A DNA stretch of 64,000 nucleotides from a virus. Its lineage: Duplodnaviria; Heunggongvirae; Uroviricota; Caudoviricetes. Numbering within the stretch: position 1 is the stretch's first letter; every line of letters begins with the position of its first letter. A program made the translations under genes and the position numbers. The stretch spans positions 234,321 through 298,320 of IMG/VR virus record IMGVR_UViG_3300020156_000001. One strand, written 5' to 3'. Below the pieces are notes generated by a model. It searched no databases. It saw nothing but the letters and a program-made list of their open reading frames with translations, and was not told where the DNA came from. This document shows positions 1,900-42,141 of this stretch, piece after piece.

Positions 1900-3636
1900 T
1901 TAAGCGAAGACGTCAAAAGTAGTTAGCTTTGGAGGAACGATCTTCGTTGCTTCCTTAAGCGTCTTAACTGCCTTTGTGTTATCGGCGATAGGAATCTGAT
2001 CCAGTGCATCGCCTACGAGAACACCAGCGTTGGTCTTATCGCCGGCCAAGCTGTTGAGTGTCTTCTCGTACTTCTTAATCAGAGTATACGGATCCTTTGT
2101 TGTAGGATCAAGAATTTCCTCAATCGCTTCCTTCAACATGATCATGTTAACTGGAACACGATCAACATCACCGCGGTCATAGAGGTCCTGTGATTCGAAA
2201 ACACCTTCCAAGTGTACCTGCGCATTGTGGTTCATCAGGTACGCATACGTGACTACATCCCAGGTGCTTGTGAGTGTTTTATCCACGTTTACGCAGATAT
2301 CACGCATCCGAAGATTCTTACCGATTTCAGTCTCGATAAAGTGGCTGTTCTGACGGAGACGGTCTAGGTCACCTTCAAACGCTTCGTTGTGGAACTCACC
2401 TGGATGATCAATCATGTTGTCCCAGATTTTGCGTAGCTCATCAAGGAACATTTCGTCACCTGCGTAGCCATCAAAATCTTTACCAAAGCGGCGCTTGTAG
2501 CGATCGTTTAGCGTACCGAGGAACTGACGACCATCCATCTTTTCCGACTGAATTGTCCAGCCATTCCGGTCCAACGTATAACCCATGAATAGGTTACCAA
2601 AAGCTGCCGTGGTGAATGGGCTGCTAACGTCATAAGAGATCGTGAACTCAGGATTGTCATGCTTGCGGATCATTCGCTGCATTGTCGTGTATGCGCAACC
2701 ATTCTGTAGCTTGCCTACACCGAGAATGTGCATCCAGTTCTTGTCTTCAAGTAGTCCATCGCGGCGGAAGCCCAACAAGCGCGTTAGCGTCATTGTGAAC
2801 TTTTCCTTGTGCGGACCAGCAAGCGACCAACCCTCAAACGCATTAGCTCCAAACTCGGAAGCCTTGCTGTAGTGCTTTACTTGCTCGTACCACTGATCAG
2901 ATTCTTCAATTGTACGACCCTGCACAACGTTTAGAAAGCCGGTGGCTCCAGTTTGACGCTTGTGGGCAAAGTACTCGTTGTTGACCAGGGTTTGGAACAT
3001 GCAAGTGGCAAAGCCGCGTGTTTGTGGATCGTTAATGCTGAGATCCATTTGTTCAGCAAATTCATCCACATTTACAGGCTGATAGCCAAGCGACTTCTTA
3101 ACAATCCGCTTACCATCCTGACGCTCATAGTTGCCTGCTTTGTCCTTCTTGAACTCAAAGCATTCCAACACGTAGATGTCACCGTCTCTCTTCAAGCGGT
3201 CATAGTGGGCGTCGATTGTGCCCATGTTGATACCACCTGTTGGAAAGTCGAGAATCATCGACCAGTCGCAGTTGACTTCCAGCCAACGCATCATGCGTTC
3301 GCGTGTTACGTCACCCTTAAACTTAATGGAACCTTGCTGGATTTGGAATCCGCCGGAGTCACCTAGTACGGTTGTGTTCTTCACATCCGCGCGTCCGGTG
3401 ATCATATCTTTGCGATGGGCAGCGCCCTCACTTTTTGCAGCTTGACCAGCCGAATAAAGCGCACAAGGAAGATACCAAAGGTTGGTGCTAGGATTGAAGA
3501 AGTCCAAGTCGGATTGAGCTATTGGACCAACACGCTTTGGCTTTGGACTCACAACGAAGCGAGTGTACATTTCTGATGTTGCTGGTAGGAACCGAGCGTA
3601 GTCAGAATAACGCTTCGAGAAATCAATACCGGGCAT
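1900..3636 (-). CDS. tRNA-guanine transglycosylase (TGT)/DpdA-fold protein
   Basis: TGT motifs in order: LGDSGGFQ, MILDFP, NVVQG, WSLAG, HILGVG, SYDVSSP, late NHN. Confidence 0.7.
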   Translation of the reverse strand: MPGIDFSKRYSDYARFLPATSEMYTRFVVSPKPKRVGPIAQSDLDFFNPSTNLWYLPCALYSAGQAAKSEGAAHRKDMITGRADVKNTTVLGDSGGFQIQQGSIKFKGDVTRERMMRWLEVNCDWSMILDFPTGGINMGTIDAHYDRLKRDGDIYVLECFEFKKDKAGNYERQDGKRIVKKSLGYQPVNVDEFAEQMDLSINDPQTRGFATCMFQTLVNNEYFAHKRQTGATGFLNVVQGRTIEESDQWYEQVKHYSKASEFGANAFEGWSLAGPHKEKFTMTLTRLLGFRRDGLLEDKNWMHILGVGKLQNGCAYTTMQRMIRKHDNPEFTISYDVSSPFTTAAFGNLFMGYTLDRNGWTIQSEKMDGRQFLGTLNDRYKRRFGKDFDGYAGDEMFLDELRKIWDNMIDHPGEFHNEAFEGDLDRLRQNSHFIETEIGKNLRMRDICVNVDKTLTSTWDVVTYAYLMNHNAQVHLEGVFESQDLYDRGDVDRVPVNMIMLKEAIEEILDPTTKDPYTLIKKYEKTLNSLAGDKTNAGVLVGDALDQIPIADNTKAVKTLKEATKIVPPKLTTFDVFA

Positions 3637-3642
3637 TTGCTA

Positions 3643-3686
3643 CCTCTTCTTATAGTTCTAAATATGTATTTAGAATATAAGATAGG
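3643..3686 (-). promoter_or_regulatory. Late promoter (CTAAATA) inside a 15-bp interrupted hairpin abutting the RBS of the TGT-like gene
   Basis: tcttata 3648-3654 / tataaga 3676-3682 and ttctaaat 3656-3663 / atttagaa 3668-3675; minus-strand CTAAATA at 3667-3673. Confidence 0.55.
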
Positions 3687-3706
3687 AGCGGCGCCTAAGT
3701 CAATTT

Positions 3707-3970
3707 CTAATTGGAAGAAGACCCAAAAAGGAAAGCCCCGAGAATCCAGCAAGCACAACCACTTAGGAACGCGAAGAAAAAGCAGCCATTTTTGTCGATT
3801 TCATCGGTGTCTCCAATGGTAACCTTATAATTATAAGTAAACCATCCGAATATCGGCATTAGGAAGATCGCTGGGATTGTAGTGATAAAGCAGCCAATCA
3901 TGAACATGAACCACTGATCGACTTGTTCTCCATCTGAGATTTGCCGCGAAGTCCACTTCTTCAATGCCAT
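3707..3970 (-). CDS. Small two-TM membrane protein
   Basis: Two hydrophobic segments; RBS aaggaga; preceded by a sigma70-like promoter. Confidence 0.6.
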   Translation of the reverse strand: MALKKWTSRQISDGEQVDQWFMFMIGCFITTIPAIFLMPIFGWFTYNYKVTIGDTDEIDKNGCFFFAFLSGCACWILGAFLFGSSSN

Positions 3971-3991
3971 TTCAATCTCCTTTGTTAGCGC

Positions 3992-4019
3992 GTTCTAACA
4001 CAGGAAACTAGCATGTCAA
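3992..4019 (-). promoter_or_regulatory. Early sigma70-like promoter
   Basis: TTGACA-16 nt-TAGAAC with TG extension (cctgtgtTAGAAC). Confidence 0.55.
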
Positions 4020-4021
4020 CC

Positions 4022-4831
4022 TTAGTTTCTAAACAGGATCTTGGTTAGATTACCCATGTTTAGCTGATCCGGCTTTACCTTGAAACGCACCCATTGCAGA
4101 TTCGCTTCTATGTTGTGGGCAATTACACCCGACGCACGTTCCAGTATGGTTTCATGGCGGTCATCAATGAGAATAGGAAACCAATCGGGTTGATCCGGAG
4201 TATGCTCGACAATGCTGCCCTCAACCCAAATAGAACCCGTAAAGTTTTCCACATACCAAGCCAGCGTATGTAGACCATCAACAGAACCATTACGGAGATT
4301 CCCTTGGAAATTAGGGCTTACCCAGAATGTTTCAAAACGGTTGGAGTTTTCCGGAGAGAATGAACTCCATGCGTATTCCTGCGATTTCAAACCCTCAAGC
4401 TCGCGGCCATAGCGGAGTTCAAAATAACCATGTGCGGTTTCGTATTGGTCTTGGCTTAATAGCTTGGCGTTGCCGTTGTCCATCATGTAGGACACAGAAT
4501 ATCTGTGAAAACCCAGTGGCATGTCCTTGACCATATAGGGCAGGAACGTTAAGCGGCAAATACCACGCACTGCATCAACGATTTCCAATGGTACGCTTGC
4601 CATAGTTTGCCCGCTGTAATAGTTGACCAATGTGGCAAACAATTTACGGCCGGTCAAATTGATGGGCTTACGATCGATATTACGAACAATAAACTCGATA
4701 TCTGTTTGGGAATCTTTGAATGCGAGAAAGTCCGGATTGTGCATGGCCATATTCCTATTCATGTGGACACTGGTGCCCTCAATGGTCAACGAAATGCGTC
4801 GTTTTGTCTCATAGAGAATCTTTGAACCCAT
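4022..4831 (-). CDS. Hypothetical beta-rich protein, possibly virion/baseplate (BppU-N-like first half)
   Basis: 269-aa ORF; IEFIVRNIDRKPINLTG...IVDAVRGICRLTF pattern; TAAATA upstream. Confidence 0.5.
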   Translation of the reverse strand: MGSKILYETKRRISLTIEGTSVHMNRNMAMHNPDFLAFKDSQTDIEFIVRNIDRKPINLTGRKLFATLVNYYSGQTMASVPLEIVDAVRGICRLTFLPYMVKDMPLGFHRYSVSYMMDNGNAKLLSQDQYETAHGYFELRYGRELEGLKSQEYAWSSFSPENSNRFETFWVSPNFQGNLRNGSVDGLHTLAWYVENFTGSIWVEGSIVEHTPDQPDWFPILIDDRHETILERASGVIAHNIEANLQWVRFKVKPDQLNMGNLTKILFRN

Positions 4832-4905
4832 ATCACACCCGTGCTGAATTTGTCCTTTTATAAATAGAAAGGTACCCGATATTTAGCTAAAACTCCTCGG
4901 TCTTC

Positions 4906-5268
4906 ATGCAAAAAACACTTGAAAAATTCCCATTCCTTACTCATGGCACATACGTGGACACTGAGTACCTGGGAATCGTAGGCAACTCAGATAATCAAAT
5001 TATCTCCATGTATGTGTATGGAGACTTGCCAACGGATGAGCTAAAGAAGTTGTTTTTGGAACTGGGAGAAGAATGGTGGTGGGAAACAAATCGACAGCTT
5101 CCCATTAATATCGCACTAAAGCAGAAGTGGGCTGTTTTCCGCCCTTATATGAAAACCTTCATTACAAAAGATTTCCAACTACATTGCGGTCCCTGCGTTA
5201 GCTTGGACGATTTGACTTCCAAGCGTATCAAGCGCCGTCAAATCCAGCTAGTTAAGAAGCTGAAGTAA
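4906..5268 (+). CDS. Hypothetical protein
   Basis: 120-aa ORF preceded by TATAAATA (4859-4866). Confidence 0.6.
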   Translation: MQKTLEKFPFLTHGTYVDTEYLGIVGNSDNQIISMYVYGDLPTDELKKLFLELGEEWWWETNRQLPINIALKQKWAVFRPYMKTFITKDFQLHCGPCVSLDDLTSKRIKRRQIQLVKKLK

Positions 5269-5836
5269 CTTTCTCTACCATAAGATTCAACTGCACAACA
5301 ATAACCAGCGCATATGAAATTGCGTGAGACTTTTTAAAACGATAAGCATCGTTTCCATCATCTACCCAAATCTCAGCCTCAATTTCAGACCAGCTTTTGC
5401 CAATCAAATACTGCTTGGCCGGACGAATCATTGCGAGTACCATTGCCAGTTGTTCAACCGACGTTGGCTTCATCTTACTTACGATATTGTAGTGGTTGTG
5501 TAGCTGGAACAAATCCTCAACCACAATCTGATCCTCGAGAAGAGCCCATATCGGTGGCTTACTCATCAAGGCTTGCAAATGTGCTTCATCGCGCACATCC
5601 TTGTAAATGGACAAGTTTAGAAAGTCCATCTTGAAGAAACCGTTAGCTTCGGCTTGTTCATAAGGAATGCTGCAAAGACCTGTAATTGGATCCGTGGGAA
5701 CCTCATGCAGATAAACGCCAACGTTGTGGCGTTTTAATTGCTTATCCTTTACCAGACTTGCTGCGGTGTGCGCGATATGCTTGAGAGCTTCATCGCGATC
5801 AGCAAAGTCGATATCAATGTCTGTGACTTTTTTCAT
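5252..5836 (-). CDS. Miniature DNA polymerase III alpha (DnaE)-like catalytic core
   Basis: TDIDIDF (cf. PDFDVDF), HNVGVY (cf. HAGGVV), KMDFLNL (cf. KFDFLGL) and YRFKKSHAISYA (cf. YGFNKSHSAAYA) in only 194 aa. Confidence 0.8.
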   Translation of the reverse strand: MKKVTDIDIDFADRDEALKHIAHTAASLVKDKQLKRHNVGVYLHEVPTDPITGLCSIPYEQAEANGFFKMDFLNLSIYKDVRDEAHLQALMSKPPIWALLEDQIVVEDLFQLHNHYNIVSKMKPTSVEQLAMVLAMIRPAKQYLIGKSWSEIEAEIWVDDGNDAYRFKKSHAISYALVIVVQLNLMVEKVTSAS

Positions 5837-6934: not shown

Positions 6935-7642
6935 TCAAACACCAGCCGCACGCAAGTTGAATTTGATAGCTCGGACTTCCTCCGAGTAATACTCGAACTT
7001 CTTGAACCAAAAGTTTGCGTCCAACAGTTCCTTAATCATCATTAGCTGCTCATCTGACAAGCGTTCGATAAGCTCATCACCTACCGTGAAAAGCAGCCAA
7101 GGACTTAGACGTCCCGCCTTAATCCATCGTGTGGCTTGAACCGTACTTACGTTGCGGAAAAAGTCGGTCCACTCTTCACCAGTTTCTCTAGCCCATTGCT
7201 CCATTAGTAGGATATTGCGCTCAAGTGCTTTGTCTGGATGCTCTTTCTTCCCAAGCTCCCTGATCCAAATCTCGTATGGACGCGGCAATGTCCAATCATC
7301 AAGCTTGACGTTTGTACGGATTAGAAAGTCGGTAAACCCCATGGGATCCAGCGCGTTGATATCGACTAGGTATTTGCCGAACTTAATAAACGCGCTGTAA
7401 TATTGAGAGTCGATAAAGTCCTCTTGTGTTTTAGGCTTTTTTGACTTCATGCTGATTTCGTAAAACAGTTGGTACGCGCGGAACCCCATCATCGCGTACT
7501 TTTCATCTTTCCAAAGCCACCGGCGCTTTTTCTCACAAGTATGGGAAATCAGCGTCTTTTCCGTCGAATAAGGATGCTTGCAAAAGTCGCAAACAAACTT
7601 GATTGGCTCCGCTTTGACTACTGCCTTAGGCTTTCTTGCCAT
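6935..7642 (-). CDS. Hypothetical protein with N-terminal Zn-finger-like motif
   Basis: Start reassigned to MARKPK (ATG 7642); CDFCKHPYSTEKTLISHTCE. Confidence 0.6.
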   Translation of the reverse strand: MARKPKAVVKAEPIKFVCDFCKHPYSTEKTLISHTCEKKRRWLWKDEKYAMMGFRAYQLFYEISMKSKKPKTQEDFIDSQYYSAFIKFGKYLVDINALDPMGFTDFLIRTNVKLDDWTLPRPYEIWIRELGKKEHPDKALERNILLMEQWARETGEEWTDFFRNVSTVQATRWIKAGRLSPWLLFTVGDELIERLSDEQLMMIKELLDANFWFKKFEYYSEEVRAIKFNLRAAGV

Positions 7643-8186
7643 AGTTGTCTCTGTATTCCTTAACCACTGCTTTGATCTCAGGATCGGATGCACCAAACTG
7701 TTTGGCTAGTTCCTTAACTTCATCCTCATTTGCAAGCTTGCCCTTCAGGATGTCAATTTCCGTGTTAGAAACTAGCGGGTGCATTTGTAGGAAATAGTTA
7801 TCCAGCAGTGGAGTCTTGCTTACTTTGCCTTTGGGCATCATCCACTTATGGCGTGGTGTGCGCGAGCTAAGTGTGGAAGCAACCGTTGCCAACAGCTTCC
7901 ATTGCAACTCCGGATGCTTGGACATTTTCCAAAACCCATTGTTCACAAACGTATTTACGAGCTGTGGCGAATTGACCGGATCACTTTCACTCAGCGATAC
8001 CCATCGCATGAGGATTAGCGGGCTGATCTCCTTGCGTTGATCTTCCGTGCAATTTGCGTAGAAGTTCAAGTCACCCTTGTATAGGGCAGGCAAGGTTTGA
8101 CCAAACAAGTCAAGCTTGTATTCCTTCTTCTTAGGCTCCTTCTTGGGCTCAGCTGAAGTTTTCGCAGATGATTTTTTCGCTGTCAC
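7626..8186 (-). CDS. Putative clamp-loader small subunit (T4 gp62-like)
   Basis: ISPLILMRWVS...VNTFVN...KHPELQWKLL...HKWM pattern resembles gp62-like proteins; replication context. Confidence 0.45.
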   Translation of the reverse strand: MTAKKSSAKTSAEPKKEPKKKEYKLDLFGQTLPALYKGDLNFYANCTEDQRKEISPLILMRWVSLSESDPVNSPQLVNTFVNNGFWKMSKHPELQWKLLATVASTLSSRTPRHKWMMPKGKVSKTPLLDNYFLQMHPLVSNTEIDILKGKLANEDEVKELAKQFGASDPEIKAVVKEYRDNYGKKA

Positions 8187-8406
8187 TTTGGTATCCTAAT
8201 CTGAAATGTACGGCATCTTTATTAGAGGAAAACGCAATTTCAATACCCTTGAAACCCCGCGTACTATCATCATAACGCGATGATATGTTCCACTTTTCAT
8301 ACTTATCCTTGCAGGAATGGACCATAAAGCGATTGATGTATTGGATCACTTCCAGCTTTTTGGTCGTGTCGGAAAACATGATTTTAATACGGTATGGGTA
8401 TTGCAT
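8149..8406 (-). CDS. Hypothetical protein with C-terminal F-x-x-x-x-DA-x-x-FRL motif
   Basis: 85 aa; IAFSSNKDAVHFRL. Confidence 0.5.
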   Translation of the reverse strand: MQYPYRIKIMFSDTTKKLEVIQYINRFMVHSCKDKYEKWNISSRYDDSTRGFKGIEIAFSSNKDAVHFRLGYQSDSEKIICENFS

Positions 8407-33448: not shown

Positions 33449-34033
33449 TTAGACGCGTGTACCAGCGATTTGTTCTGGCAATGCTGTCATCAAGCCGTCT
33501 GCTAGTGTTGCGTTGTCATAACGAACGCTCATTGTGATTGTCTGGAAGGACGAATCATCATATGCGAGGTCAGAGAACTCAACGTTGTCTAGGAAGCAGC
33601 CTTCGAGTGTCCATGTGGAGATAACACCGTCGTTGCCACCGTCCATTGTTTCGATCAAAAGCACGAACTTGTAGTTGACACCGCTTGTGAAACCAGTCTG
33701 TTCGTAATGGTTCATCTGCTTCTGCATCTGGTGACCAACGAGACGTTCCGCCGAGTTAGTGATATCATCACGAATAACCAGCGAGATTGGTTCCCACTCA
33801 TGCTTGCCAGCATAGTATGCGGTGCTGTTGTAGGAGTGAACTGGAACTGGTTCATGGCTCATAGACGGCTGAGTCACGCTTACAACTTGTTGAGTAAGCT
33901 CGATACCACCGGCGATTGGACCAAAGTTTACCACGCGAACGCGGAAACGGTACTTGTACTTAGGCTGAAGGATACCGCCACGGCCACCACCACCGCCGAG
34001 CGGAACACCAAATTTAGAGAGGGTTTCTGCCAT
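33449..34033 (-). CDS. gp19: Tail tube protein (T4 gp19-like)
   Basis: KYRFRV, YAGKHEWEPISLVIRDD, WTLEGCF and ITMSVRYD. Confidence 0.85.
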   Translation of the reverse strand: MAETLSKFGVPLGGGGGRGGILQPKYKYRFRVRVVNFGPIAGGIELTQQVVSVTQPSMSHEPVPVHSYNSTAYYAGKHEWEPISLVIRDDITNSAERLVGHQMQKQMNHYEQTGFTSGVNYKFVLLIETMDGGNDGVISTWTLEGCFLDNVEFSDLAYDDSSFQTITMSVRYDNATLADGLMTALPEQIAGTRV

Positions 34034-34037
34034 GGAT

Positions 34038-34087
34038 AAATCTCCTGTTTAGCAAATATTTTAGATATTTACCAGAACAGGAGATTT
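34038..34087 (-). promoter_or_regulatory. Late promoter inside RBS-sequestering hairpin (tube gene)
   Basis: Perfect 12-bp aaatctcctgtt/aacaggagattt; minus-strand TAAATA at 34066-34071 between the arms. Confidence 0.7.
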
Positions 34088-34103
34088 TTATTAAATTAGT
34101 GGT

Positions 34104-34595
34104 TTATTCTACAGCGATTGTTGGTGTTGGATTGCCCATACGAAAAGCATCACGTGGAATACCATCGCAGGTTGGAAAAACTGCAAGCTGAACCTGATAC
34201 ACACCTTTTGGCAAATGATCTGGCAGCTGGAGAAGAACACGAGCAGTAACTCGACTAGATGTTCCACGCTGACCTAGGAACTGACTCTTACGTGTGGGGA
34301 ATTGATAATCCACAGGCCCCACAAGCACGTTTTGATAATCAGCGTGGCAGCCAACTTCCTTCTTGATCAAATTGTATTCAAGAACCATTGCATCGCCTGG
34401 AACAAAATTATGTGCAGGTTCAAGTGTGTCCGAGCTTAAAACTTTTGGTGCACTACTAAATGCGAGAAAGTCTCTGCGGTCACCATCATAGAAATAAGTG
34501 GTAGCTTGCGCTGCAATAGTAACAACTAGCGCAAACATTATAATGTTGCCAAGGTTTCGAACCATTGGGCTTGAATTCTTAAACAAATTAAACAT
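34104..34595 (-). CDS. Membrane-anchored protein with N-terminal TM (candidate lysis accessory)
   Basis: NIIMFALVVTIAAQA TM segment then a beta-rich domain with two Cys; late-gated RBS. Confidence 0.5.
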   Translation of the reverse strand: MFNLFKNSSPMVRNLGNIIMFALVVTIAAQATTYFYDGDRRDFLAFSSAPKVLSSDTLEPAHNFVPGDAMVLEYNLIKKEVGCHADYQNVLVGPVDYQFPTRKSQFLGQRGTSSRVTARVLLQLPDHLPKGVYQVQLAVFPTCDGIPRDAFRMGNPTPTIAVE

Positions 34596-34597
34596 GG

Positions 34598-34632
34598 GTC
34601 CTCCTTAGGGGCTAATTATTTAGCAGGAGGAC
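34598..34632 (-). promoter_or_regulatory. Late promoter inside RBS-sequestering hairpin
   Basis: Minus strand: gtcctcct-gctaa-ataa-ttagc-cccta-aggaggac-cc-ATG. Confidence 0.7.
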
Positions 34633-34642
34633 ACCACTCATG

Positions 34643-34670
34643 GAAATAGGCCGGTTTCCCGGCCTATCCC
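34643..34670 (-). terminator. Intrinsic terminator after Ro60 gene
   Basis: ataggccgg-GAAA-ccggcctat followed by ttcc (short U-tract). Confidence 0.65.
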
Positions 34671-36320
34671 TTACTTGCTGAAAAACTCGGATGCCAGCTG
34701 CGGTGCAGCGGAATCAAAGCCCGCAAAGTCCATCATACCAGCGTCGGACGGATCCGCGATGGAGAAGCTCGTTGCGGTCATACCAAACACTGCGAGCTTT
34801 GCAGGAACATTGTGGTTCTTACGGAAGTCCTTCAGTGCCTGATACGGATGAATCGAACCATAGTAAGTTTCATTGTCCGTGTAAACAGAGAAGTTCTCCG
34901 CTGCATAGCCCATGTTGTCGGCCCAAAGCATTGGCAAAGCGCAATCCGTGCCTGCAAACGGCATGTTAGCCGTGTCACGAAGCGCCTTAGTCAAGCCGCC
35001 CTTTGGATCGATTTCGATTTCCTTGACGCTCGAACGGGACCAAGTGTTACCGCGATCGTTGCTGAAACCACCTGGGGTGAATGCCAGCAAGCGATGGTTG
35101 GGCTCCACAGCCGCCGTGATCAATGCCATAGCCATCGAAGCTTCGCGCGCCGTTAGGGTTACAAAGCCAGAGATTGGCTGCGTCATCGAACCCGAAACGT
35201 CGATACCGAGAACAGTTGGCTTGTTCGTTGGCGTAACGTTGCCGAACGCCTTGTAAAATGCCTTGTCCAACGCCTGAGTAATGTCCCTGTTGGGAACCCA
35301 GATGTTGTTACCACGGACACCGCGGCCGGCTTCATACGTACGAAGCGCACTCAAAATGTTCATCGGGTGGATACGAGACTTGCGCAGGATCTCCTGATTG
35401 GTTACCTGTGCAATTACCTTATCCACATTCGCCTTGGTAGCGAATACGTCGTTTCGCGTCATCGTAGCAAGATTGCGGATCAACGCCGTCATTGGCATCT
35501 TTTCCAGCAATGCTTCCCACACAACCTTCGAGTTCAAGTGAGCCGTTGGTACGGCTTCACGCGGCAAGTTGTGGTCCAGGATAAGCTGAACGATACGGTT
35601 TTCACCCGCCGTCTTTGCTTCCTCAAACGCCTGGATGATTTCCGGGAGCTTGCCCGAGACATCCTTACGCTTGATGCTTACCTTGGAACCATCTGCCGCA
35701 GTACGCGAATAGGTGGAAGCCTTGGTTGCATCAATACCACCGGTAACCCAACGGAAAACGGCGTCGTACTGGGCGTTCTTTGCCTTTGGGTGAGACAGAC
35801 GCAATAGGTCGGAGTTTGCCCAACCATCACGGCTCTGATACTTTACCACCTGATAAGCAAGCTGGTCTGGCGCCTTGATGAGGTACCAGTTACGAACTGC
35901 CTTGGACAGCGTACGGCCCCAACCACGGAACTGCTTTACGTAGCCGACAAACGCAAACAGGTGCGTTGGTGTACGAGCTACCTCAGGGAGAGCCGCAAGG
36001 GCACGACGACGAGTTTCGACCTTGGAGTCAGCCGCTGCAAGAGCAAGCACGAACAGCGCGTATTCGTTCTTGGGCGCACGACCTTCCTTGCTTATCTCAA
36101 CTGTCCGCTTGATAACAGCTTCTGGTTGAGTGCGAAGCAACGCAATAACGTTTTTCGCATTATCCTTGGTCACATCGGCCGCGCCCTTATAAGCGTTGGC
36201 TTCCGATCCCAGGATAAGGAAACGGTCGAGCTGGTCCATTGGGCTTACCTTGAAGGTAAAACCACCAGCGTTGTTCATTACCATGTCTAGGCCTTCCACG
36301 GCCTTTGTCTGTCGAGTCAT
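34671..36320 (-). CDS. rsr: Ro60 / TROVE-domain RNA-binding protein with C-terminal vWA
   Basis: Start reassigned to MTRQTK (RBS gaaaggag; 549 aa); NNAGGFTF, LDRFLILGSE, GWGR, YQVVKYQSRDGW, MPMTALIRNLATM, vWA MIDAS GIDVSGSM, GTDCALPM, YTDNET and GFDSAAP. Confidence 0.93.
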   Translation of the reverse strand: MTRQTKAVEGLDMVMNNAGGFTFKVSPMDQLDRFLILGSEANAYKGAADVTKDNAKNVIALLRTQPEAVIKRTVEISKEGRAPKNEYALFVLALAAADSKVETRRRALAALPEVARTPTHLFAFVGYVKQFRGWGRTLSKAVRNWYLIKAPDQLAYQVVKYQSRDGWANSDLLRLSHPKAKNAQYDAVFRWVTGGIDATKASTYSRTAADGSKVSIKRKDVSGKLPEIIQAFEEAKTAGENRIVQLILDHNLPREAVPTAHLNSKVVWEALLEKMPMTALIRNLATMTRNDVFATKANVDKVIAQVTNQEILRKSRIHPMNILSALRTYEAGRGVRGNNIWVPNRDITQALDKAFYKAFGNVTPTNKPTVLGIDVSGSMTQPISGFVTLTAREASMAMALITAAVEPNHRLLAFTPGGFSNDRGNTWSRSSVKEIEIDPKGGLTKALRDTANMPFAGTDCALPMLWADNMGYAAENFSVYTDNETYYGSIHPYQALKDFRKNHNVPAKLAVFGMTATSFSIADPSDAGMMDFAGFDSAAPQLASEFFSK

Positions 36321-36377
36321 CGGACTCTCCTTTCGATTCGGCCCTACTCTGCTAGGGCAAACGCACGCATATACACT

Positions 36378-36412
36378 GGAAAAAGAAAGTTCAAGCCTAA
36401 ACTTGAACTTTC
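36378..36412 (-). terminator. Terminator-like hairpin ~60 nt upstream of Ro60 start
   Basis: gaaagttcaag/cttgaactttc perfect 11-bp stem followed by UUUUU on the minus strand. Confidence 0.65.
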
Positions 36413-36508
36413 CAAAAATATATTCAACAAAATGGGCAACAATGGAAATCCACTGCGGATAGAGGAACAGCCATGAGCAGCCCAAGCCCTACCCTAACGC
36501 CTTATTAT

Positions 36509-36823
36509 CTAATTTGTGCCGGCACTCATGATCTCTTTGAGAAAGGCAATCGCTTCATCAGTTGATCTGACTTGCTTGTTCACTTTCTGCGGGTGATGAA
36601 GCACAATGTGGATGCAGGATGGTCCATACATTTGCACAAGGCCTCTACCTTCAAACCGCCCGTTGCCAGGGGCTCGATTATTCCACCTATTTGGCCACTT
36701 ATAATCGTGATAAGGAGCTTTGTAAGCGGATTCTACACCGAGGACTTTCGCACATTCCTCGTAAAACGTCTCTTTTTCATTTGTCATCGGCCCCAGTATA
36801 GCTAGGGCCGACAACTTTGTCAA
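36509..36823 (-). CDS. Hypothetical protein
   Basis: 104 aa between the SIMPL-like gene and Ro60. Confidence 0.55.
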   Translation of the reverse strand: MTKLSALAILGPMTNEKETFYEECAKVLGVESAYKAPYHDYKWPNRWNNRAPGNGRFEGRGLVQMYGPSCIHIVLHHPQKVNKQVRSTDEAIAFLKEIMSAGTN

Positions 36824-36825
36824 TG

Positions 36826-37533
36826 TTAGAGTCGGCTGTAAATCTTGCGCGTAAACGTAACACGGGCAGTCAGCACAAGCTTCTGCGTTACGCCGCCAGC
36901 GTCTTCTTCATCACCGGCTGCTTCATTGTACATGGCAACGTTTGCCGTGCGGAGCATGTTGGACTTGGCGTATTGATTGTTACCGCTGTGAGTAACAAAG
37001 TCAATGGAGCCAACAATCCAGGCATCGTCGCCGTCCTTGACCACTTCGTTGAGAACTGTGAGTTCTTCGTTGGCCTTTTCGTAAACCTTGCGGCGGAGAG
37101 ATTTATTACCTTGGGCAATTTGATCGCGTGTTGGTGAATAGTCCGTGTTGAGCAGCGCGAACTTGAGACCTGGGCGATTGACTGCCTTGATCTTGCCCTT
37201 GATTGGACCAACACCACTGTCCTTGATCCGGACGTTCAGCGAATAAGAAACAGTTTCAATACCCGAACTGTCTTCGTTGCGGTTCAAACCAGTAATATAC
37301 CAGTCGCCGTCGGAGATTTGCTTTGCCGCTTCAAGCACTTCTGCCTTAGCGTCGAGCGTTGGATCGGTCATTGCAAATGTTGCGGAAAAACTAAGTTTTG
37401 CAGTTTCCGAAATGATGAACTCTTCAGCGGTAATGTCAACCGACACTTCGCTCATTGGAATATGAGTCACGCGAATCTCCTTGGGATTGATTACAGTTGC
37501 CGTTGTATTAGATAAAATCCTAGGAATCAACAA
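36826..37533 (-). CDS. SIMPL/DUF541-like protein lacking a signal peptide
   Basis: Alternating beta/alpha pattern; KVYEKANEELTVLNEVV...WIVGSID...QKLVLTARVTF C-terminus. True start probably GTG/ATG ~20-26 codons in (RBS aaggag). Confidence 0.45.
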   Translation of the reverse strand: MLIPRILSNTTATVINPKEIRVTHIPMSEVSVDITAEEFIISETAKLSFSATFAMTDPTLDAKAEVLEAAKQISDGDWYITGLNRNEDSSGIETVSYSLNVRIKDSGVGPIKGKIKAVNRPGLKFALLNTDYSPTRDQIAQGNKSLRRKVYEKANEELTVLNEVVKDGDDAWIVGSIDFVTHSGNNQYAKSNMLRTANVAMYNEAAGDEEDAGGVTQKLVLTARVTFTRKIYSRL

Positions 37534-37575
37534 AAGAAAAACCTAACTCCGAATCGACTTCAGGAGTTAGGTTTT
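37532..37575 (-). terminator. Intrinsic terminator of ncRNA
   Basis: aaaacctaactcc/ggagttaggtttt 13-bp stem followed by UCUUUU. Confidence 0.8.
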
Positions 37576-38293
37576 GTTCCAAAGCACCCGTAGGTCTTTG
37601 ACCGGTTATGTGCGTTTCGTAATCGTGGTCCGCATCTTAAGCACCGGAGTGCCACTAGCTGGGGCTAGATTCATACAATCGCTTGTATGTTTACAGAGCA
37701 AAAGGTTAACAGGTTACGGCCGTCGAAATCATTTTGCTTCAACACCCGAAGGCTCCACAAAGGTTGACCCGATAAAATGCCTAGGCATTACATCCTTTCG
37801 GACGACTTGGACCACAATAGGAAGTTCCGCACTTGCCTATTTTTGCTTGATAAGATAACCCTATTAAAGCGGCTCTGTTAGTTTATTTAACAGGAATCCG
37901 AAGATTCCTGCTAAAATTGCGTTATTTCGATCAAGAGAAGAAGGTGGGTTTCTCTGTCCTATCCCACTATATCACTATAGCAGAATTCCCCATTCATTTC
38001 GGTACCAATCTGAGAAGAAAACAGTACCTACTTAACACCTGCGCTACTAGTTACCAGGCTGTCGACGAGTTTCCTTGTCGAACTTCTTTCTCTATCTGAA
38101 AAGCCGAAGCTTTTCTGAAACTCGCCCATCCGTCTCACGGGACGAGCCATTCGCTGTTATCGGTTAATTCCGACATATCCCACGCACCCAGGATTTCTAG
38201 TCCTGGAGTACCCTTACGCTTTAGAATTAGCAGCCTAGTCGCCAAGCGTGAGATTTTATAGGTTCAGGAGAAAAACTCCTTCGCGAACGTTAT
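37532..38293 (-). ncRNA. Large (~760 nt) highly structured non-coding RNA candidate
   Basis: Own promoter and terminator; no minus-strand ORF >=60 aa; three C(UUCG)G, one c(UACG)g and two GAAA tetraloops on the minus strand; long-range helices. Confidence 0.75.
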
Positions 38294-38299
38294 ATCAGC

Positions 38300-38328
38300 A
38301 ATATAGAGCAGATTTAGGGCAAAGTCAA
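38300..38328 (-). promoter_or_regulatory. Sigma70-like promoter of ncRNA
   Basis: TTGACT (38323-38328)-17 nt-TATATT (38300-38305). Confidence 0.7.
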
Positions 38329-38783
38329 TAATATCCCGCAGCTTTATATAAAATTCTATCCATTGCACTCATGCACTCATCATAGCCAATGGGATCATCG
38401 TTGCGGAACTCTTCAGCAGTTTTGTATTTGGGCAGACTGGTTGAGAAGAACTCGTTGTTGAGCTGAAGATACGCTTCCCAAACTTGTTCCTCAGTAAAGC
38501 TGATGGGACCGGACTTACGTAGGATCCACCAGTAGTTGACGTTTGGATCTTCATCGAGTTCTTCAAAAAACACCGCAGCAAGTTCTGCGTTGATAACTTG
38601 TGGTTCAGCCGTTGCAGTCAAATGATTGGAAAGATCTATAAGCTTGTTTTTGTTGATCACACTGGGTAAAACTTTTCGGTCAAATAGCATGGCGCCGATT
38701 ATAAACGTATCCAACCCCACGGTGCCCGGATACCAACGAGAGGCCACATAAAGCTTTTTGTAATTGGCTCGTTCGTAAATCAT
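38325..38783 (-). CDS. Hypothetical protein
   Basis: 152 aa; RBS aaggaga; own early promoter. Confidence 0.6.
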   Translation of the reverse strand: MIYERANYKKLYVASRWYPGTVGLDTFIIGAMLFDRKVLPSVINKNKLIDLSNHLTATAEPQVINAELAAVFFEELDEDPNVNYWWILRKSGPISFTEEQVWEAYLQLNNEFFSTSLPKYKTAEEFRNDDPIGYDECMSAMDRILYKAAGYY

Positions 38784-38859: not shown

Positions 38860-41800
38860 TTATAGTGTTGTCGAAACCGAGTAAAGCTCGGAGAGATCAT
38901 CACCCGTATTAACGATACGGATTGGAATGTAGATGAACTCGATTGCCTTTACCGGCTGGATAGCAACGTCAACCCACAACTCGTTACGATCAATACGATC
39001 TGGTGTGTTGTTGGTTTCATCGCAAACTACGATAAAGTCGTACATTGCATCCAAGTTAACAAGCGAAGCCAAGTAACGCTCGAAAGCAATACGGATGGAG
39101 TCGCGTGTGTGGAATGTGTGTGGCTGGAACAAGAACGGACGGCTCAAGTTGTCCAGGTTGTAACGCATGTGGTTGATCAAACGTGCTACGTTGATACGAT
39201 CCATTGCGCTTGCTGTGGAGCTACGTGTCTTCTGACCGTAAATCATCAATCCGCGATTTGGAATAAACGCAATTGGGTTGATGTTGTTGGAGTAAAGAAC
39301 ATCGCGCTGACCTTCGTTGAGAAGCAAGCTACGGAACTCTTCTTCCGGTGTTAGGTAACCAACATTCGAAGCGTTAGTGATAAGACCACGAACTGTACCA
39401 GCTGGAGCGTACCATGGGTAGCTTACCGAGTCGCTATATGCGATGCTGCGCATTGCCATAGCCGATGGAGGAACCATGATCTCAAAGCCATCAACGTTGG
39501 AACCCAAGCCCCAAGGATAGTAAACACCAACGTATGGGTTGAATGTTGTGATGCCCTGTTCGCCATTGCTGATCGCGCCGGAGAGTTCTGCCTTTGCCCA
39601 CTTCTGGATTTCTGTAGCCGAACCGTTCAAGCGGATTGGAGTATCACCAACGATAAACGCAACTTCCTTCTTGTCCGTGTTGAGTGTTACCATCTCATCG
39701 ATCAGCTCAGGATAACCTGGAGCAGCGATCAAGTTGAAGTAGATGGACTCTGCACGGATGTCTTGGTTGCTGTTGATTGTGTTGGTAAGCGAACGAACAA
39801 TAACCGCACGCTGAGCCTTGCGACCCATCATTGGAGCGCCATCAGCATTGTTGCCGCTGATTGTTACCCAACGACCTGCATCAGCAACTGGATCAAATGT
39901 AGAGAAGCCAACTTCGTAATCGTTGATTGTGAAGTCAGTGGACTCGTATTCACCAGCAAAGTAATTTGGACGCCACTGCTTTACGTTCATTGTCGAGAAG
40001 CGAGTGTTGAACAGAAGTGTACCTTCTGGGTAAACACGTGGATCTGGAGCATCCGGATCAACATAGTTGCTGCGCAATAGGCTAGACGCATCTGTTGCAC
40101 CCTTACGGGAGCTTGTAGCGGTTTCGCGTGCATCAGCAAACACAATACCAAATGGTGTTGTGGAGTCTGTGTTGTCTACTAGGAACCAGTTACGGGAAGC
40201 TGCCTGGTAACGATATAGCTTTGGATAGTTTTCCAAATCACCTGTGTTGATCCACAAGTCGTTCTGTGCAAGTGGCTGACCATTCTGCTGGTACATTGGA
40301 GGTGTAGCCTGCAGGATAACGCCGCTTTCGCTTGTAGCGGAATTGCCCATGTAGTTCTTGTAACCAACCCACTGGTCGCCATCATTGATCATGATGTCAA
40401 CTTGGAAGTCGTCGTTGAACCAGAGGTAACCCTCTTCAGCGTCTGTTACTGGGGCAGTTGGACCAAAGTTGTAAACTAGTGGTTCCCAAGCCAAACCATT
40501 CCAACGACGCAGCTCATGTGTGCCCATTGGAAGTTCGATAGAACCAGTTACGTTGAACTGAACGTAGAGAACACCAATGCTCTTATTTGCGCCAAACAAA
40601 GCATTTGCAGCGGCATCGTTAGCAAGCAATGGAGCTACGATTGTGTCCCAAAGACCTGTGTTACCGTTGAAATACTTAACAGACCAGTTAGCACCGTTGT
40701 TGTACTGAGTTGTGTTAACCCAAACATCACCAGCAACAACATTCTTACGACCTAGGTCGTCGATGCGCGATGGAATTGTGTAGTGTGGGCTGAAACGCAA
40801 AGCTACGCCAAACTTGGTTACTAGACCAAGAACAGTTGCAGCATTGCCGTTGCTGTTGACGATGATATCGCCACCAAGCTTGTTAACCAATACAAGTGAA
40901 CCACTCTGTTCGTAAGCTACGATCTGGTTTGCAGTTGGACCCTTTGCAGCGTCGGCAACTAGGCCAGCCAAAACAGTGTTGATTTCCGTAGCAATATCGG
41001 CAACAGTTAGAGTTGCACCAGTAAATGTAACGTCTACCGCGCTTAGCGTGTCGTTGCTTACGTTGATGCGAAGTGTTGTGTTAGCGATTGCTGGGATAGC
41101 AGCGGAACCCAAGTTGTTACCTGCGGTACGTGTTGGGGATGCAGCCTTCCAAAGAGCCGAACCAACCTTGAACCAGAAGCTCGAAGCAAGTGGATCGTTG
41201 GACGATGTGATACCTGCTGGGCGAACCTTCTGGAAGATTTCGTTGTCATTGTTTTCTGCAACAACAACAGCAAAAGAACCATCAAGACCGATACCAGCGC
41301 GTGGGCCAAAGCTGCCATCAAACTCACCAGCCTGTAGACCCAATGCAACAGCAACAGCCGACGATGTACCGCCGAGTGTGATTGCAGTGTTGCTTACCGT
41401 GCAACGGATAAGTAGGCTTGCCTTTTCAGCAAGTTGGAATACGCTTGCTGTAACGCCAGCGATCGAAGCCGCGTTGATCTTTGTTACGATTGCCTGAAGT
41501 GTATCACCACCAGCCAAAGCAACAGCCTGGCCGTTGATGCTGATGTTACCAGCAGTTGCAAGAACCTGATCACCTGCGGAATCAAACTCAACACCGCCGA
41601 TAAGACGATATTCAACTTCAGTTGCTTCGTCAAGTACGACTGGAGTCTGTGGAACCCAAGCAGAACCTGGGAATGTGGAATCAACACCCTCGTGAATACC
41701 CCATACTGTGGACTTTGTGTCAAGCCAGTATGTGCCAGCGAATGGTTCGCCAACTGGTTCTTCCGAACGTGGGAAAAGCTGAGAATAGTCAACAGAACCA

Positions 41801-42141
41801 CGAATAACGTATGCCTTGTTTGCCATACCCAAGTAGGAATATGCAGCCCACAAGCCGTATTCGTTTAGTTCAAAACCATGACGGCTTGTACCATTCTTCT
41901 GATAGAAGATTGGGTTGCCGAAGGTTTGGACAAGTTCACGCTGGCTTGTTACCAGGTAAAGCTGATTTGCTTTTTCAGGCAGTGTACCAACGGAAATGTC
42001 TGTGCCATTAGGATGAGTCTTGTACTCATGCGTACCAATGATAAACAGAGGCACCGTGCCTTCGCCAGATGTTGCGTAAAACGACTCGTCGGTTACGGTA
42101 ACATCTACGCCTGGAGAAGTTAGTGGATAGGCCATATTCAT
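38860..42141 (-). CDS. gp18: Contractile tail sheath protein (gp18-like) with large insertions
   Basis: SPGVDVTVTDES N-terminus; FNLIAAPGYPEL, VYYPWG, PWYAPAGTVRG, INPI, RINVARL and IQPVKAIEFIYIP. Confidence 0.92.
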   Translation of the reverse strand: MNMAYPLTSPGVDVTVTDESFYATSGEGTVPLFIIGTHEYKTHPNGTDISVGTLPEKANQLYLVTSQRELVQTFGNPIFYQKNGTSRHGFELNEYGLWAAYSYLGMANKAYVIRGSVDYSQLFPRSEEPVGEPFAGTYWLDTKSTVWGIHEGVDSTFPGSAWVPQTPVVLDEATEVEYRLIGGVEFDSAGDQVLATAGNISINGQAVALAGGDTLQAIVTKINAASIAGVTASVFQLAEKASLLIRCTVSNTAITLGGTSSAVAVALGLQAGEFDGSFGPRAGIGLDGSFAVVVAENNDNEIFQKVRPAGITSSNDPLASSFWFKVGSALWKAASPTRTAGNNLGSAAIPAIANTTLRINVSNDTLSAVDVTFTGATLTVADIATEINTVLAGLVADAAKGPTANQIVAYEQSGSLVLVNKLGGDIIVNSNGNAATVLGLVTKFGVALRFSPHYTIPSRIDDLGRKNVVAGDVWVNTTQYNNGANWSVKYFNGNTGLWDTIVAPLLANDAAANALFGANKSIGVLYVQFNVTGSIELPMGTHELRRWNGLAWEPLVYNFGPTAPVTDAEEGYLWFNDDFQVDIMINDGDQWVGYKNYMGNSATSESGVILQATPPMYQQNGQPLAQNDLWINTGDLENYPKLYRYQAASRNWFLVDNTDSTTPFGIVFADARETATSSRKGATDASSLLRSNYVDPDAPDPRVYPEGTLLFNTRFSTMNVKQWRPNYFAGEYESTDFTINDYEVGFSTFDPVADAGRWVTISGNNADGAPMMGRKAQRAVIVRSLTNTINSNQDIRAESIYFNLIAAPGYPELIDEMVTLNTDKKEVAFIVGDTPIRLNGSATEIQKWAKAELSGAISNGEQGITTFNPYVGVYYPWGLGSNVDGFEIMVPPSAMAMRSIAYSDSVSYPWYAPAGTVRGLITNASNVGYLTPEEEFRSLLLNEGQRDVLYSNNINPIAFIPNRGLMIYGQKTRSSTASAMDRINVARLINHMRYNLDNLSRPFLFQPHTFHTRDSIRIAFERYLASLVNLDAMYDFIVVCDETNNTPDRIDRNELWVDVAIQPVKAIEFIYIPIRIVNTGDDLSELYSVSTTL

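What the first reader, a model, noticed from the sequence alone, without database searches (positions are those of the whole stretch)
37532..38293. ~760-nt independently transcribed, ornately structured ncRNA (GOLLD/ROOL-scale, family unassigned)
Seen: promoter TTGACT-17-TATATT at one end and a 13-bp terminator at the other, with no same-strand ORF >=60 aa. Stable tetraloops all read correctly on the minus strand: C(UUCG)G at 38098-38115 (7 bp), 37887-37914 (12 bp) and 37744-37753; c(UACG)g at 37580-37600; GAAA at 38063-38080 and 37791-37804. Long-range helices close domains: 38283-38289 with 38148-38154; 38083-38093 with 37934-37943; 37809-37818 with 37622-37631 (10 bp); 37732-37738 with 37697-37703. 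Several more local hairpins are present. Established: phages carry large ornate RNAs such as GOLLD (~800 nt) and ROOL (~600 nt) of unknown function. Inference: either a GOLLD-like member in an alphaproteobacterial jumbo phage or a new class; I cannot assign the family by eye.
Basis: partly seen in the sequence, partly recalled or inferred. Interest (0 to 1): 0.9.

Follow-up and report, generated by a model that had tools for sequence, protein, structure and literature searches.

The report
New multi-domain jumbo-phage non-coding RNA
The gene-free 0.8-kb gap after the tail-sheath gene of this 480-kb phage encodes a real, intricately folded RNA, the largest known version of an uncatalogued phage RNA family of unknown function that a cultured Sinorhizobium phage also carries.

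Summary
Window 37531-38328 (minus strand) has no conserved ORF.

It is not GOLLD, ROOL or any other Rfam 15 family. It belongs to an uncatalogued family: 31 distinct copies in jumbo-phage contigs and metagenomes, and none in 185,579 prokaryotic species genomes.

The family shares a ~140-nt core (window 38148-38289): a closing helix, five further helices and a pseudoknot. Covariation support is strong: 90% of cells paired against 61% in shuffles and 34-46% in slid controls. The pseudoknot pair switches C-G / U-A / A-U without exception.

Short members are ~200 nt, with their own promoter and terminator between the tail sheath and tail tube genes. The window copy adds domain 2 (shared by ~10 relatives, well supported) and domain 3 (three phages only, weakly supported). 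It is therefore modular rather than one ancient 760-nt fold.

A phage Ro60 gene lies 1 kb downstream, but four large contigs that carry the core have no Ro60, so the core is not Ro60's private partner.

Function is unknown. My best guess is a trans-acting protein-binding scaffold RNA.

This scan already found the same family on two other genomes (e1-5388038, e1-5413683).

The parts
38300..38328 (-). Sigma-70-type promoter: TTGACT (38328-38323), 17-nt spacer, TATATT (38305-38300). The inferred start is near 38293.
   Evidence: 10 of 12 matches. The same layout sits at the same place in Phosso, L026 and L032. Other lineages have a T4-type TAAATA box 45-50 nt before the core motif instead. The start site is inferred, not measured.
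38148..38289 (-). Domain 1, the conserved family core. P0 38289-38283 with 38154-38148; P1 38279-38267; P2 38254-38246 with 38185-38177; P3 38232-38217; junction UAAGGGUA 38216-38209; P4 38208-38185; P5 38174-38159.
   Evidence: Model R1 scores 98.9 bits, E 2.4e-16. The P0 cognate versus non-cognate duplex test gave no permutation as good in 10,000.
38234..38262 (-). Pseudoknot: CCUA (38262-38259) pairs with UAGG (38237-38234), which lies inside the P2-P3-P4 junction.
   Evidence: The middle pair is C-G in 16, U-A in 12 and A-U in 1 of 29 distinct sequences, with no exception. Both positions were left free (N) in the search pattern.
37924..38147 (-). Domain 2. It holds hairpin 38148-38119, the UUCG hairpin 38115-38098, the closing helix 38092-38083 with 37943-37935, the conserved GGUGUUAAGUAG (38039-38028), and ends in GAUCGAAAU (37932-37924).
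   Evidence: 29 of 48 predicted pairs keep pairing through double changes in 5 sequences. The UUAAGUAG-like and GAUCGR motifs sit at constant positions in about 10 relatives. In L026, L027 and L044 the RNA ends with a terminator right after this domain.
37576..37923 (-). Domain 3, found only in the window, Phosso (L001) and L042. It has a 12-bp UUCG hairpin (37911-37890) and invariant blocks at 37813-37791, 37745-37736 and 37642-37627. The GGUCC/GGACC helix lies within 37809-37818 with 37622-37631.
   Evidence: Only 7 of 63 predicted pairs show compensatory change in 3 sequences, so the fold of this domain is weakly supported. Variable hairpins between invariant blocks fit an RNA.
37883..37889 (-). 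TAAATAA motif, conserved in all three domain-3 carriers. It may be an internal T4-type late promoter for domain 3.
   Evidence: One search shows it is conserved while the preceding hairpin is not. TAAATA precedes 9 of 18 downstream genes checked in the window, including sheath and tube. Inference only.
37531..37575 (-). Intrinsic terminator: a long bulged hairpin followed by a U tract.
   Evidence: Equivalent terminators occur in L001 and L042.
34671..36485 (-). Context only: the phage Ro60 gene (TROVE plus vWA), about 1 kb downstream on the same strand.
   Evidence: Pfam E 2e-49 and 7e-50. The link to the RNA is not shown. 8 of 31 family loci have Ro60 next to the RNA. Four large RNA-bearing contigs have none.
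38860..42141 (-). Context only: the tail sheath gene upstream. The tail tube gene is at 33449-34033.
   Evidence: Sheath was detected upstream in 21 of the 31 distinct loci and tube downstream in 19.

Best explanation
Window 37531-38293 (minus strand) is a stand-alone gene for a structured non-coding RNA with three domains.

**Domain 1 (about 140 nt).** This is the conserved core of an uncatalogued RNA family of T4-like jumbo phages. It is a four-way junction closed by helix P0. One arm is itself a three-way junction (P2, P3, P4), and a 4-bp pseudoknot locks it to the strand between P1 and P2.

**Domains 2 and 3.** These are lineage-specific 3' additions. Domain 2 occurs in the clade that carries cargo genes (SIMPL-like protein, 104-aa protein, often Ro60) between sheath and tube. 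Domain 3 occurs in only three phages.

**Shown:** homology, the core and domain-2 secondary structure, the pseudoknot, the single copy per genome, the restriction to phages, and the absence from Rfam.

**Inferred:**
- The transcript ends, from promoter and terminator motifs.
- The RNA acts in trans as a folded scaffold or decoy that binds one or more proteins.
- The added domains bring further partners.
For: **Family and homology**
- The full-length homologue in cultured Sinorhizobium phage Phosso is unannotated apart from one doubtful ORF.
- A motif pattern retrieved 22 metagenome and 21 IMG/VR stretches, giving 31 distinct copies.
- There is one copy each in this genome and in Phosso.
- The pattern has no match in 185,579 prokaryotic species genomes.

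**Core structure**
- On a plain MAFFT alignment, 84.8% of cells pair against 61.5% in shuffles and 32-47% in slid controls. 27 of 33 pairs change on both sides.
- On the model-fitted alignment the figure is 90% paired, with a covariation score of 0.774 against 0.21.
- P0: cognate duplexes average -9.5 kcal/mol against -6.4 for non-cognate pairs.
- Domain 2: 29 of 48 pairs are compensatory.

**Stand-alone gene**
- A promoter motif lies directly upstream in 16 of 29 loci by strict patterns: 7 have TAAATA at a constant -45 to -50, and 9 are sigma-70-like.
- Terminators follow at about +140-215, +310-370, +560-590 or +700-750 from the core motif.
- In L045 a perfect TATAAATA separates the RNA from the tube gene, and TAAATA-containing boxes do so in L029, L040 and L050. 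The tube gene therefore has its own promoter.
- A weak promoter-like site sits between the window's terminator and the next gene, and at the same position in L001 and L042 (by eye).

**Not coding**
- ORFs differ in position and frame between phages.
Against: - No transcript was observed, so the ends and even expression are inferred.
- No partner protein is identified. Neighbouring genes vary, and the only constant neighbours are sheath and tube.
- The scaffold or decoy function is a guess by elimination.
- Many invariant core nucleotides were required by the search pattern, so their invariance is partly due to how the copies were found.
- Domain 3 rests on three sequences.
- The related phage Atu_ph07 lacks the RNA, so it is dispensable for at least one phage of this type.
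Confidence: 0.55

Rival explanations
1. Giant Y-RNA-like partner of the phage Ro60. Domain 3, perhaps with domain 2, binds the Ro60 encoded 1 kb downstream and tethers it to whatever the core binds, as bacterial Y RNAs tether Rsr to PNPase.
For: - Ro60 (TROVE plus vWA) lies about 1 kb downstream on the same strand. Bacterial and phage Y RNAs are encoded next to Ro60 (PMC4201824).
- No recognisable Y RNA was found anywhere in 34000-38500.
- Domain 3 occurs only in Ro60-carrying phages (3 of 3).
- Its 23-nt invariant block (37813-37791) contains GGUCC and GUCCGA. These resemble the GGUCCGA strand that Ro60 contacts in Xenopus Y RNA (quoted).
Against: - The core occurs without any Ro60 in contigs of 415, 561 (97% complete), 297 and 199 kb.
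- L026 keeps domains 1-2 and the neighbouring genes but has no Ro60.
- Ro60-carrying L027, L006, L044 and L034 lack domain 3.
- 18 further phage Ro60 loci and Atu_ph07 lack the RNA.
- Characterised Y RNAs are 80-130 nt with the Ro site in the terminal stem plus a tRNA-like module. ARAGORN finds nothing tRNA-like.
- A 6-mer match is expected by chance in about 1 of 5 RNAs of this size.
Confidence: 0.15
2. Cis-acting leader. The folded RNA controls read-through of its own terminator into the downstream genes, either as a riboswitch or as a processive antiterminator of the HK022 put or Bacillus EAR type.
For: - The RNA is always co-oriented with the downstream genes, and a terminator follows it.
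- Conserved junction nucleotides plus a pseudoknot are typical of ligand- or polymerase-binding RNAs.
- In the window only a weak promoter-like site lies between the terminator and the next gene (one search lists none there).
Against: - In short members 30-40 nt and an unrelated hairpin separate P0 from the terminator, and I saw no alternative pairing.
- The downstream gene has its own late-promoter box in L029, L040, L045 and L050.
- The downstream gene differs between lineages: tube, SIMPL-like protein, 104-aa protein or others. This is unlike a riboswitch.
- The distance to the next gene varies from about 230 to 1190 nt.
Confidence: 0.12
3. Two adjacent RNA genes rather than one. Domains 1-2 come from the upstream promoter and domain 3 from its own late promoter (TAAATAA at 37889-37883), sharing one terminator.
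For: - TAAATAA is conserved in all three domain-3 carriers, although the hairpin before it is not.
- TAAATA boxes precede sheath, tube and other late genes in this window.
- Relatives end the RNA right after domain 2.
Against: - There is no terminator after domain 2 in the window, so the upstream promoter must still give the full 760-nt product.
- A 7-nt motif could equally be a conserved RNA element.
- This refines the main explanation rather than contradicting it.
Confidence: 0.25
4. Not an RNA gene: decayed coding sequence, or a DNA-level regulatory or recombination region.
For: - Phosso annotates an 81-aa hypothetical ORF inside domain 3.
- The region next to the RNA is a hotspot for varied cargo genes.
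Against: - Helix-specific compensatory changes, G-U pairs on one strand only and a perfectly covarying pseudoknot are not expected of DNA elements or dead genes.
- ORFs are not conserved.
Confidence: 0.02

Closest known systems
GOLLD and ROOL (large ornate RNAs, often phage- or prophage-borne; RNA-only nanocages by cryo-EM, PMC12286853)
   Same: - Size class (about 600-800 nt).
- Phage-borne.
- Own promoter and terminator.
- Many helices and a pseudoknot.
- Function unknown.
   Different: - No match to either Rfam model or any other family.
- The conserved part here is only about 140 nt, and the rest is a lineage-specific addition.
- Found in jumbo T4-like phages of soil and freshwater, next to the tail sheath gene and not near tRNA genes.
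- Oligomerisation was not tested.
Bacterial and phage Y RNAs (Yrn1, YrlA/YrlB) with Ro60/Rsr (PMC4201824)
   Same: - Encoded within about 1 kb of a Ro60 gene, on the same strand.
- Domain 3 has an invariant block with GGUCC and GUCCGA, similar to the Ro-contacted strand.
   Different: - Six times larger than Y RNAs.
- No tRNA-like module.
- The motif is not in a terminal stem.
- The core family exists in phages without Ro60, and most phage Ro60 loci lack it.
phi29 pRNA (my own knowledge, not checked here)
   Same: A phage-encoded, compact, pseudoknot-forming RNA of about 120-170 nt that works as a structural part of a protein machine.
   Different: - No sequence or structural likeness was tested or seen.
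- pRNA acts on the packaging motor.
- Nothing links this RNA physically to the tail.
HK022 put and Bacillus EAR processive antitermination RNAs (my own knowledge)
   Same: A folded RNA inside a co-oriented gene row, followed by terminators.
   Different: - Downstream genes have their own promoters in several lineages.
- No evidence of read-through.

Membership tests
GOLLD (Rfam) | Match to the Rfam covariance model at or near its gathering score | tested here: not met
   No family reached its gathering score in the 64-kb window. Nothing related appeared at E<=10 in 37300-38500.
ROOL (Rfam) | Match to the Rfam covariance model at or near its gathering score | tested here: not met
   Twelve homologous loci also gave no hit at E<=1.
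OLE, RNase P, tmRNA, group I/II introns, riboswitch classes in Rfam 15 | Match to any of the 4227 Rfam models, or tRNA/tmRNA detection by ARAGORN | tested here: not met
   for Rfam. for ARAGORN (0 genes in the window).
Y RNA / YrlA | Encoded next to a Ro60 gene | tested here: met
   The Ro60 gene is at 34671-36485, about 1 kb downstream on the same strand.
Y RNA / YrlA | 80-130 nt, with a terminal stem formed by the 5' and 3' ends that carries the Ro-binding motif (GGUCCGA or GNCGAAN0-1G) | tested here: not met
   The RNA is about 760 nt. Its terminal helix P0 has no such motif. GUCCGA occurs only in an internal block of domain 3.
Y RNA / YrlA | tRNA-like module (T- and D-arm mimics) | tested here: not met
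   ARAGORN finds nothing. No Rfam tRNA or Y-type hit. The P5 loop is 6 nt, not a 7-nt T loop.
Y RNA / YrlA | Physical binding to Ro60 | not testable with these tools
   Needs RIP or in vitro binding.
Uncatalogued jumbo-phage core RNA family (defined here; same as scan notes e1-5388038 and e1-5413683) | P0-P5 architecture with the CCYA:URGG pseudoknot and the junction motifs CUGAACCYAUAA, GACURGG and UAARGRUA | tested here: met
   Model R1 scores 98.9 bits, E 2.4e-16 over all 137 positions at 38145-38282. All helices are present.
Uncatalogued jumbo-phage core RNA family | Single copy, downstream of the tail sheath gene and upstream of the tail tube gene, same strand | tested here: met
   One copy in the 480-kb genome. 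Sheath is at 38860-42141 and tube at 33449-34033. Exception in the family: L046 lies beside a NYN-domain gene.

The most novel reading that the evidence does not exclude
The 760-nt form is a composite ribonucleoprotein scaffold. An ancient jumbo-phage core RNA has been fused to a Y-RNA-like module (domain 3, with its invariant GGUCC...GUCCGAAAGG block). That module recruits the phage's own Ro60 and so directs an RNA-surveillance ring to whatever the core binds. It would be the first 'giant Y RNA' and the first phage RNA joining two RNP systems.
Probability: 0.12. Interest if true: 0.85.

Novelty: new variant of a known kind. Interest (0 to 1): 0.68.

Why it matters
Large, intricately folded RNAs of unknown function are rare, and several have turned out to be unusual molecular machines or assemblies.

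- **Breadth.** This family is widespread in soil and freshwater jumbo phages whose sheath proteins are only about 40-80% identical. It keeps a pseudoknotted core with many fixed junction bases, and it grows by adding whole domains.
- **Testability.** The window's 760-nt form has a near-twin in a cultured phage, Sinorhizobium phage Phosso on S. meliloti NRRL L-50. Deletion, pull-down, Ro60 binding and structure work can therefore be done directly.
- **Annotation.** A Phosso 'hypothetical protein' CDS lies inside the RNA and is probably spurious.

Tried and rejected
- **Rfam 15.** Searched at gathering score on the window, and at E<=10, E<=5 and E<=1 on the region, the Ro60 side and 12 homologous loci. 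Only chance hairpin hits appeared.
- **ARAGORN.** Nothing.
- **Expression.** No RNA holder was listed for this stretch. The only run is a DNA soil metagenome that may be the source.
- **Domain-3 search.** The exact 23-mer gave 0 hits in IMG/VR.
- **Locus search with the 214-aa neighbour.** None confirmed.
- **Model R1 in other phages.** No hit in 18 other phage Ro60 loci or in Atu_ph07 with filters off. Atu_ph07's 650-nt gap after Ro60 is AT-rich with no match.
- **Tertiary-contact ideas checked by eye and dropped.** I tried P5 loop with UGAAC, and P5 loop with GUAAA of J3/4. The loop variants do not stay complementary.
- **Known-motif resemblances recalled from memory (ZTP, ykkC, SRP Alu, tRNA cloverleaf).** None is backed by an Rfam hit, so none is claimed.
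- **GATCGAA.** 18 occurrences against 8.7 expected in the window. This is suggestive only.
- **Neighbouring proteins.** Pfam and PHROGs on the 214-, 152-, 104- and 163-aa proteins gave nothing.
- **Literature.** Full-text searches found no description of an RNA between sheath and tube genes of jumbo phages.

Full report
**Source.** The window is positions 234321-298320 of a 480,347-bp virus record with direct terminal repeats. Its closest cultured relative in the phage collection is Sinorhizobium phage Phosso (469 kb, host S. meliloti NRRL L-50).

**Observation.**
- On the minus strand a 152-aa ORF ends at 38325 and the next gene starts at GTG 37470. No minus-strand ORF longer than 40 aa lies between them.
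- The promoter TTGACT-17-TATATT (38328-38300) matches 10 of 12 consensus positions.
- The hairpin at 37575-37538 with its U tract is a strong terminator.
- The MFE z-score is -5.9, but the opposite strand gives -5.2. Energy alone does not choose the strand.

**Known families.**
- No Rfam 15 family reaches its gathering score in the window.
- Nothing but two chance hits appears at E<=10 in the region, nothing at E<=5 on the Ro60 side, and nothing at E<=1 in 12 homologous loci.
- ARAGORN finds no tRNA or tmRNA.
- The RNA is therefore not GOLLD, ROOL, OLE, RNase P, tmRNA, an intron or a catalogued Y RNA.

**Homologues.**
- Phosso has a full-length counterpart (nhmmer E 2e-75; about 79% mean column identity) with the same promoter layout and terminator. 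It is unannotated except for an 81-aa 'hypothetical' CDS inside it.
- A Ro60-anchored search gave L004, which has only the first ~350 nt followed by its own terminator. L026 and L006 followed.
- I built a pattern from motifs shared by these five copies. It retrieved 22 metagenome and 21 IMG/VR stretches, including contigs of 415-561 kb, and none in 185,579 prokaryotic species genomes.
- After removing duplicates there are 31 distinct copies.
- The RNA is single-copy in this genome and in Phosso, and absent from the related Agrobacterium phage Atu_ph07.

**The core (domain 1, window 38289-38148).**
- The order is P0, P1, CUGAACCYAUAA, P2, GACURGG, P3, UAARGRUA, P4, P2', P5, P0'.
- On an unfitted MAFFT alignment of 25 sequences, 84.8% of cells pair. 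Shuffles give 61.5% and slid controls 32-47%. 27 of 33 pairs change on both sides.
- On the alignment fitted to model R1 (29 distinct rows), 90.0% pair and the covariation score is 0.774 against 0.21.
- CCYA in the P1-P2 linker pairs with URGG inside the P2-P3-P4 junction. This is a pseudoknot, and its variable pair is C-G (16), U-A (12) or A-U (1) without exception. Both positions were wildcards in the search pattern.
- The closing helix P0 differs in sequence between lineages but stays complementary. Cognate duplexes average -9.5 kcal/mol against -6.4 for mismatched partners, and none of 10,000 permutations did as well.
- Caveat: several invariant motifs were required by the pattern, so their invariance is partly due to how the copies were found.

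**Modularity.**
- Terminators follow the core motif at about +140-215 in short forms (L029, L048, L050, L052, L056, L067, L068).
- They follow at +310-370 in L026, L027, L032 and L044, at about +560-590 in L046, and at +700-750 in the window, L001 and L042.
- Domain 2 (38147-37924) is shared by about 10 relatives. It has a UUAAGUAG-like motif and a terminal GAUCGR at constant positions. 29 of 48 predicted pairs are compensatory in five sequences.
- Domain 3 (37923-37576) exists only in the window, Phosso and L042. It alternates invariant blocks with variable hairpins, but only 7 of 63 pairs covary, so its fold is provisional.
- A TAAATAA just before domain 3 is conserved in all three. TAAATA boxes precede 9 of the 18 downstream genes I checked in this window, including sheath and tube. 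Domain 3 may therefore also have its own late promoter.

**Context.**
- Sheath was detected upstream in 21 of the 31 distinct loci and tube downstream in 19. The sheath matches were 38-81% identical to the window's protein and the tube matches 52-78%.
- In many loci the tube gene starts only 233-311 nt after the core motif.
- Between the RNA and the tube gene, different lineages carry different cargo:
  - a SIMPL-like 214-aa protein;
  - a 104-aa protein;
  - Ro60;
  - in L053, a dual-specificity phosphatase and a GH15-like protein.
- L046 is an exception. There the RNA lies beside a NYN-domain gene.
- Promoter types differ. Seven loci have TAAATA at -45 to -50, nine are sigma-70-like by strict patterns, and others have an extended -10 box seen by eye.
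- In L045 a perfect TATAAATA separates the RNA's end from the tube gene, and TAAATA-containing boxes do so in L029, L040 and L050. The RNA is therefore a separate transcription unit and not the tube leader.

**Ro60.**
- The 604-aa ORF at 34671-36485 is a full TROVE plus vWA protein.
- Ro60 sits next to the RNA in 8 of 31 loci.
- Four large RNA-bearing contigs, one of them 97% complete, have no Ro60.
- L026 keeps domains 1-2 and the neighbouring genes without Ro60.
- 18 other phage Ro60 loci and Atu_ph07 lack the RNA.
- The core is therefore not Ro60's dedicated partner.
- Domain 3 occurs only with Ro60. Its invariant block contains GGUCC and GUCCGA, which resemble the Ro-contacted strand quoted in PMC4201824. 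This is a lead with odds of about 0.12-0.15, not a finding.

**Mechanism.**
- Shown: a compact, knotted, phage-specific RNA gene.
- Inferred: it works in trans as a folded scaffold or decoy for proteins, with accessory domains adding partners.
- Rivals are a cis-acting antiterminator or riboswitch, a Y-like Ro60 partner, and two separate RNAs sharing one terminator.
- No expression data were available.

**Earlier notes.** Two follow-up notes on other genomes (e1-5388038, e1-5413683) describe the same family and the same conclusion about Ro60. My results were obtained independently before I read them, and they agree. Their statement that the RNA is 'abundant' could not be checked here.

Noticed in passing
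window, upstream of genes starting at 42141, 34595, 34033, 31977, 30877, 27887, 24996, 22156 (minus strand): A T4-type late-promoter box (nTAAATAn) sits 16-57 nt before the start codons of sheath, tube and other genes downstream of the RNA. Atu_ph07 has TATAAATA before its tube gene. This phage group seems to use T4-like late transcription.
   Followed up: partly
L001:2994-3239 (Phosso CDS 395, XYS97552.1): The annotated 'hypothetical protein' lies wholly inside domain 3 of the RNA. It has no conserved counterpart ORF in the window or L042, so it is probably a spurious gene call.
   Followed up: partly
window 36321-36508, and the Ro60 leaders of L006, L044, L034, L027, L001, L042: The 100-250-nt leaders before Ro60 hold conserved hairpins. 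L006, L044 and L034 share a GGUCC...GACC hairpin with compensatory changes. The window, L001, L042 and L027 share GCAGUG...CACUGUU. These may be Ro60 autoregulatory or Y-like sites. No Rfam hit.
   Followed up: partly
L026 (IMGVR_UViG_3300020156_000137), 2386-5634: This close relative has the order sheath, 149-aa ORF, RNA (domains 1-2), SIMPL-like gene, 109-aa ORF, 166-aa ORF, tube. The Ro60 gene is cleanly absent, so Ro60 is a gain or loss cargo within the island.
   Followed up: partly
between RNA and tube in L053:10570-14358 and L046:622-3834: The slot next to the RNA holds different cargo in different phages: a DSP-type phosphatase and a GH15/trehalase-like protein in L053, and a NYN-domain nuclease, a Mom-like protein and a metallophosphatase around the RNA in L046. 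It looks like a hotspot for accessory genes.
   Followed up: no
window 36826-37470 (-): The 214-aa protein just downstream of the RNA looks SIMPL-like by ESM Atlas features (0.93-0.95) and structure (TM 0.81), although Pfam and PHROGs HMMs miss it.
   Followed up: partly
window 37924-37932, and the Ro60 leaders of L042, L027, L006, L044, L034: GAUCGA(A) recurs at the 3' end of domain 2 in about 9 relatives and again just before Ro60 in several phages. GATCGAA occurs 18 times in the window against 8.7 expected. Its meaning is unknown: a processing site, a protein site or a methylation motif.
   Followed up: partly
L028 (Atu_ph07) 7636-8285: Atu_ph07 has Ro60 between sheath and tube but no core RNA. 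Instead a 650-nt AT-rich unannotated gap follows Ro60.
   Followed up: partly
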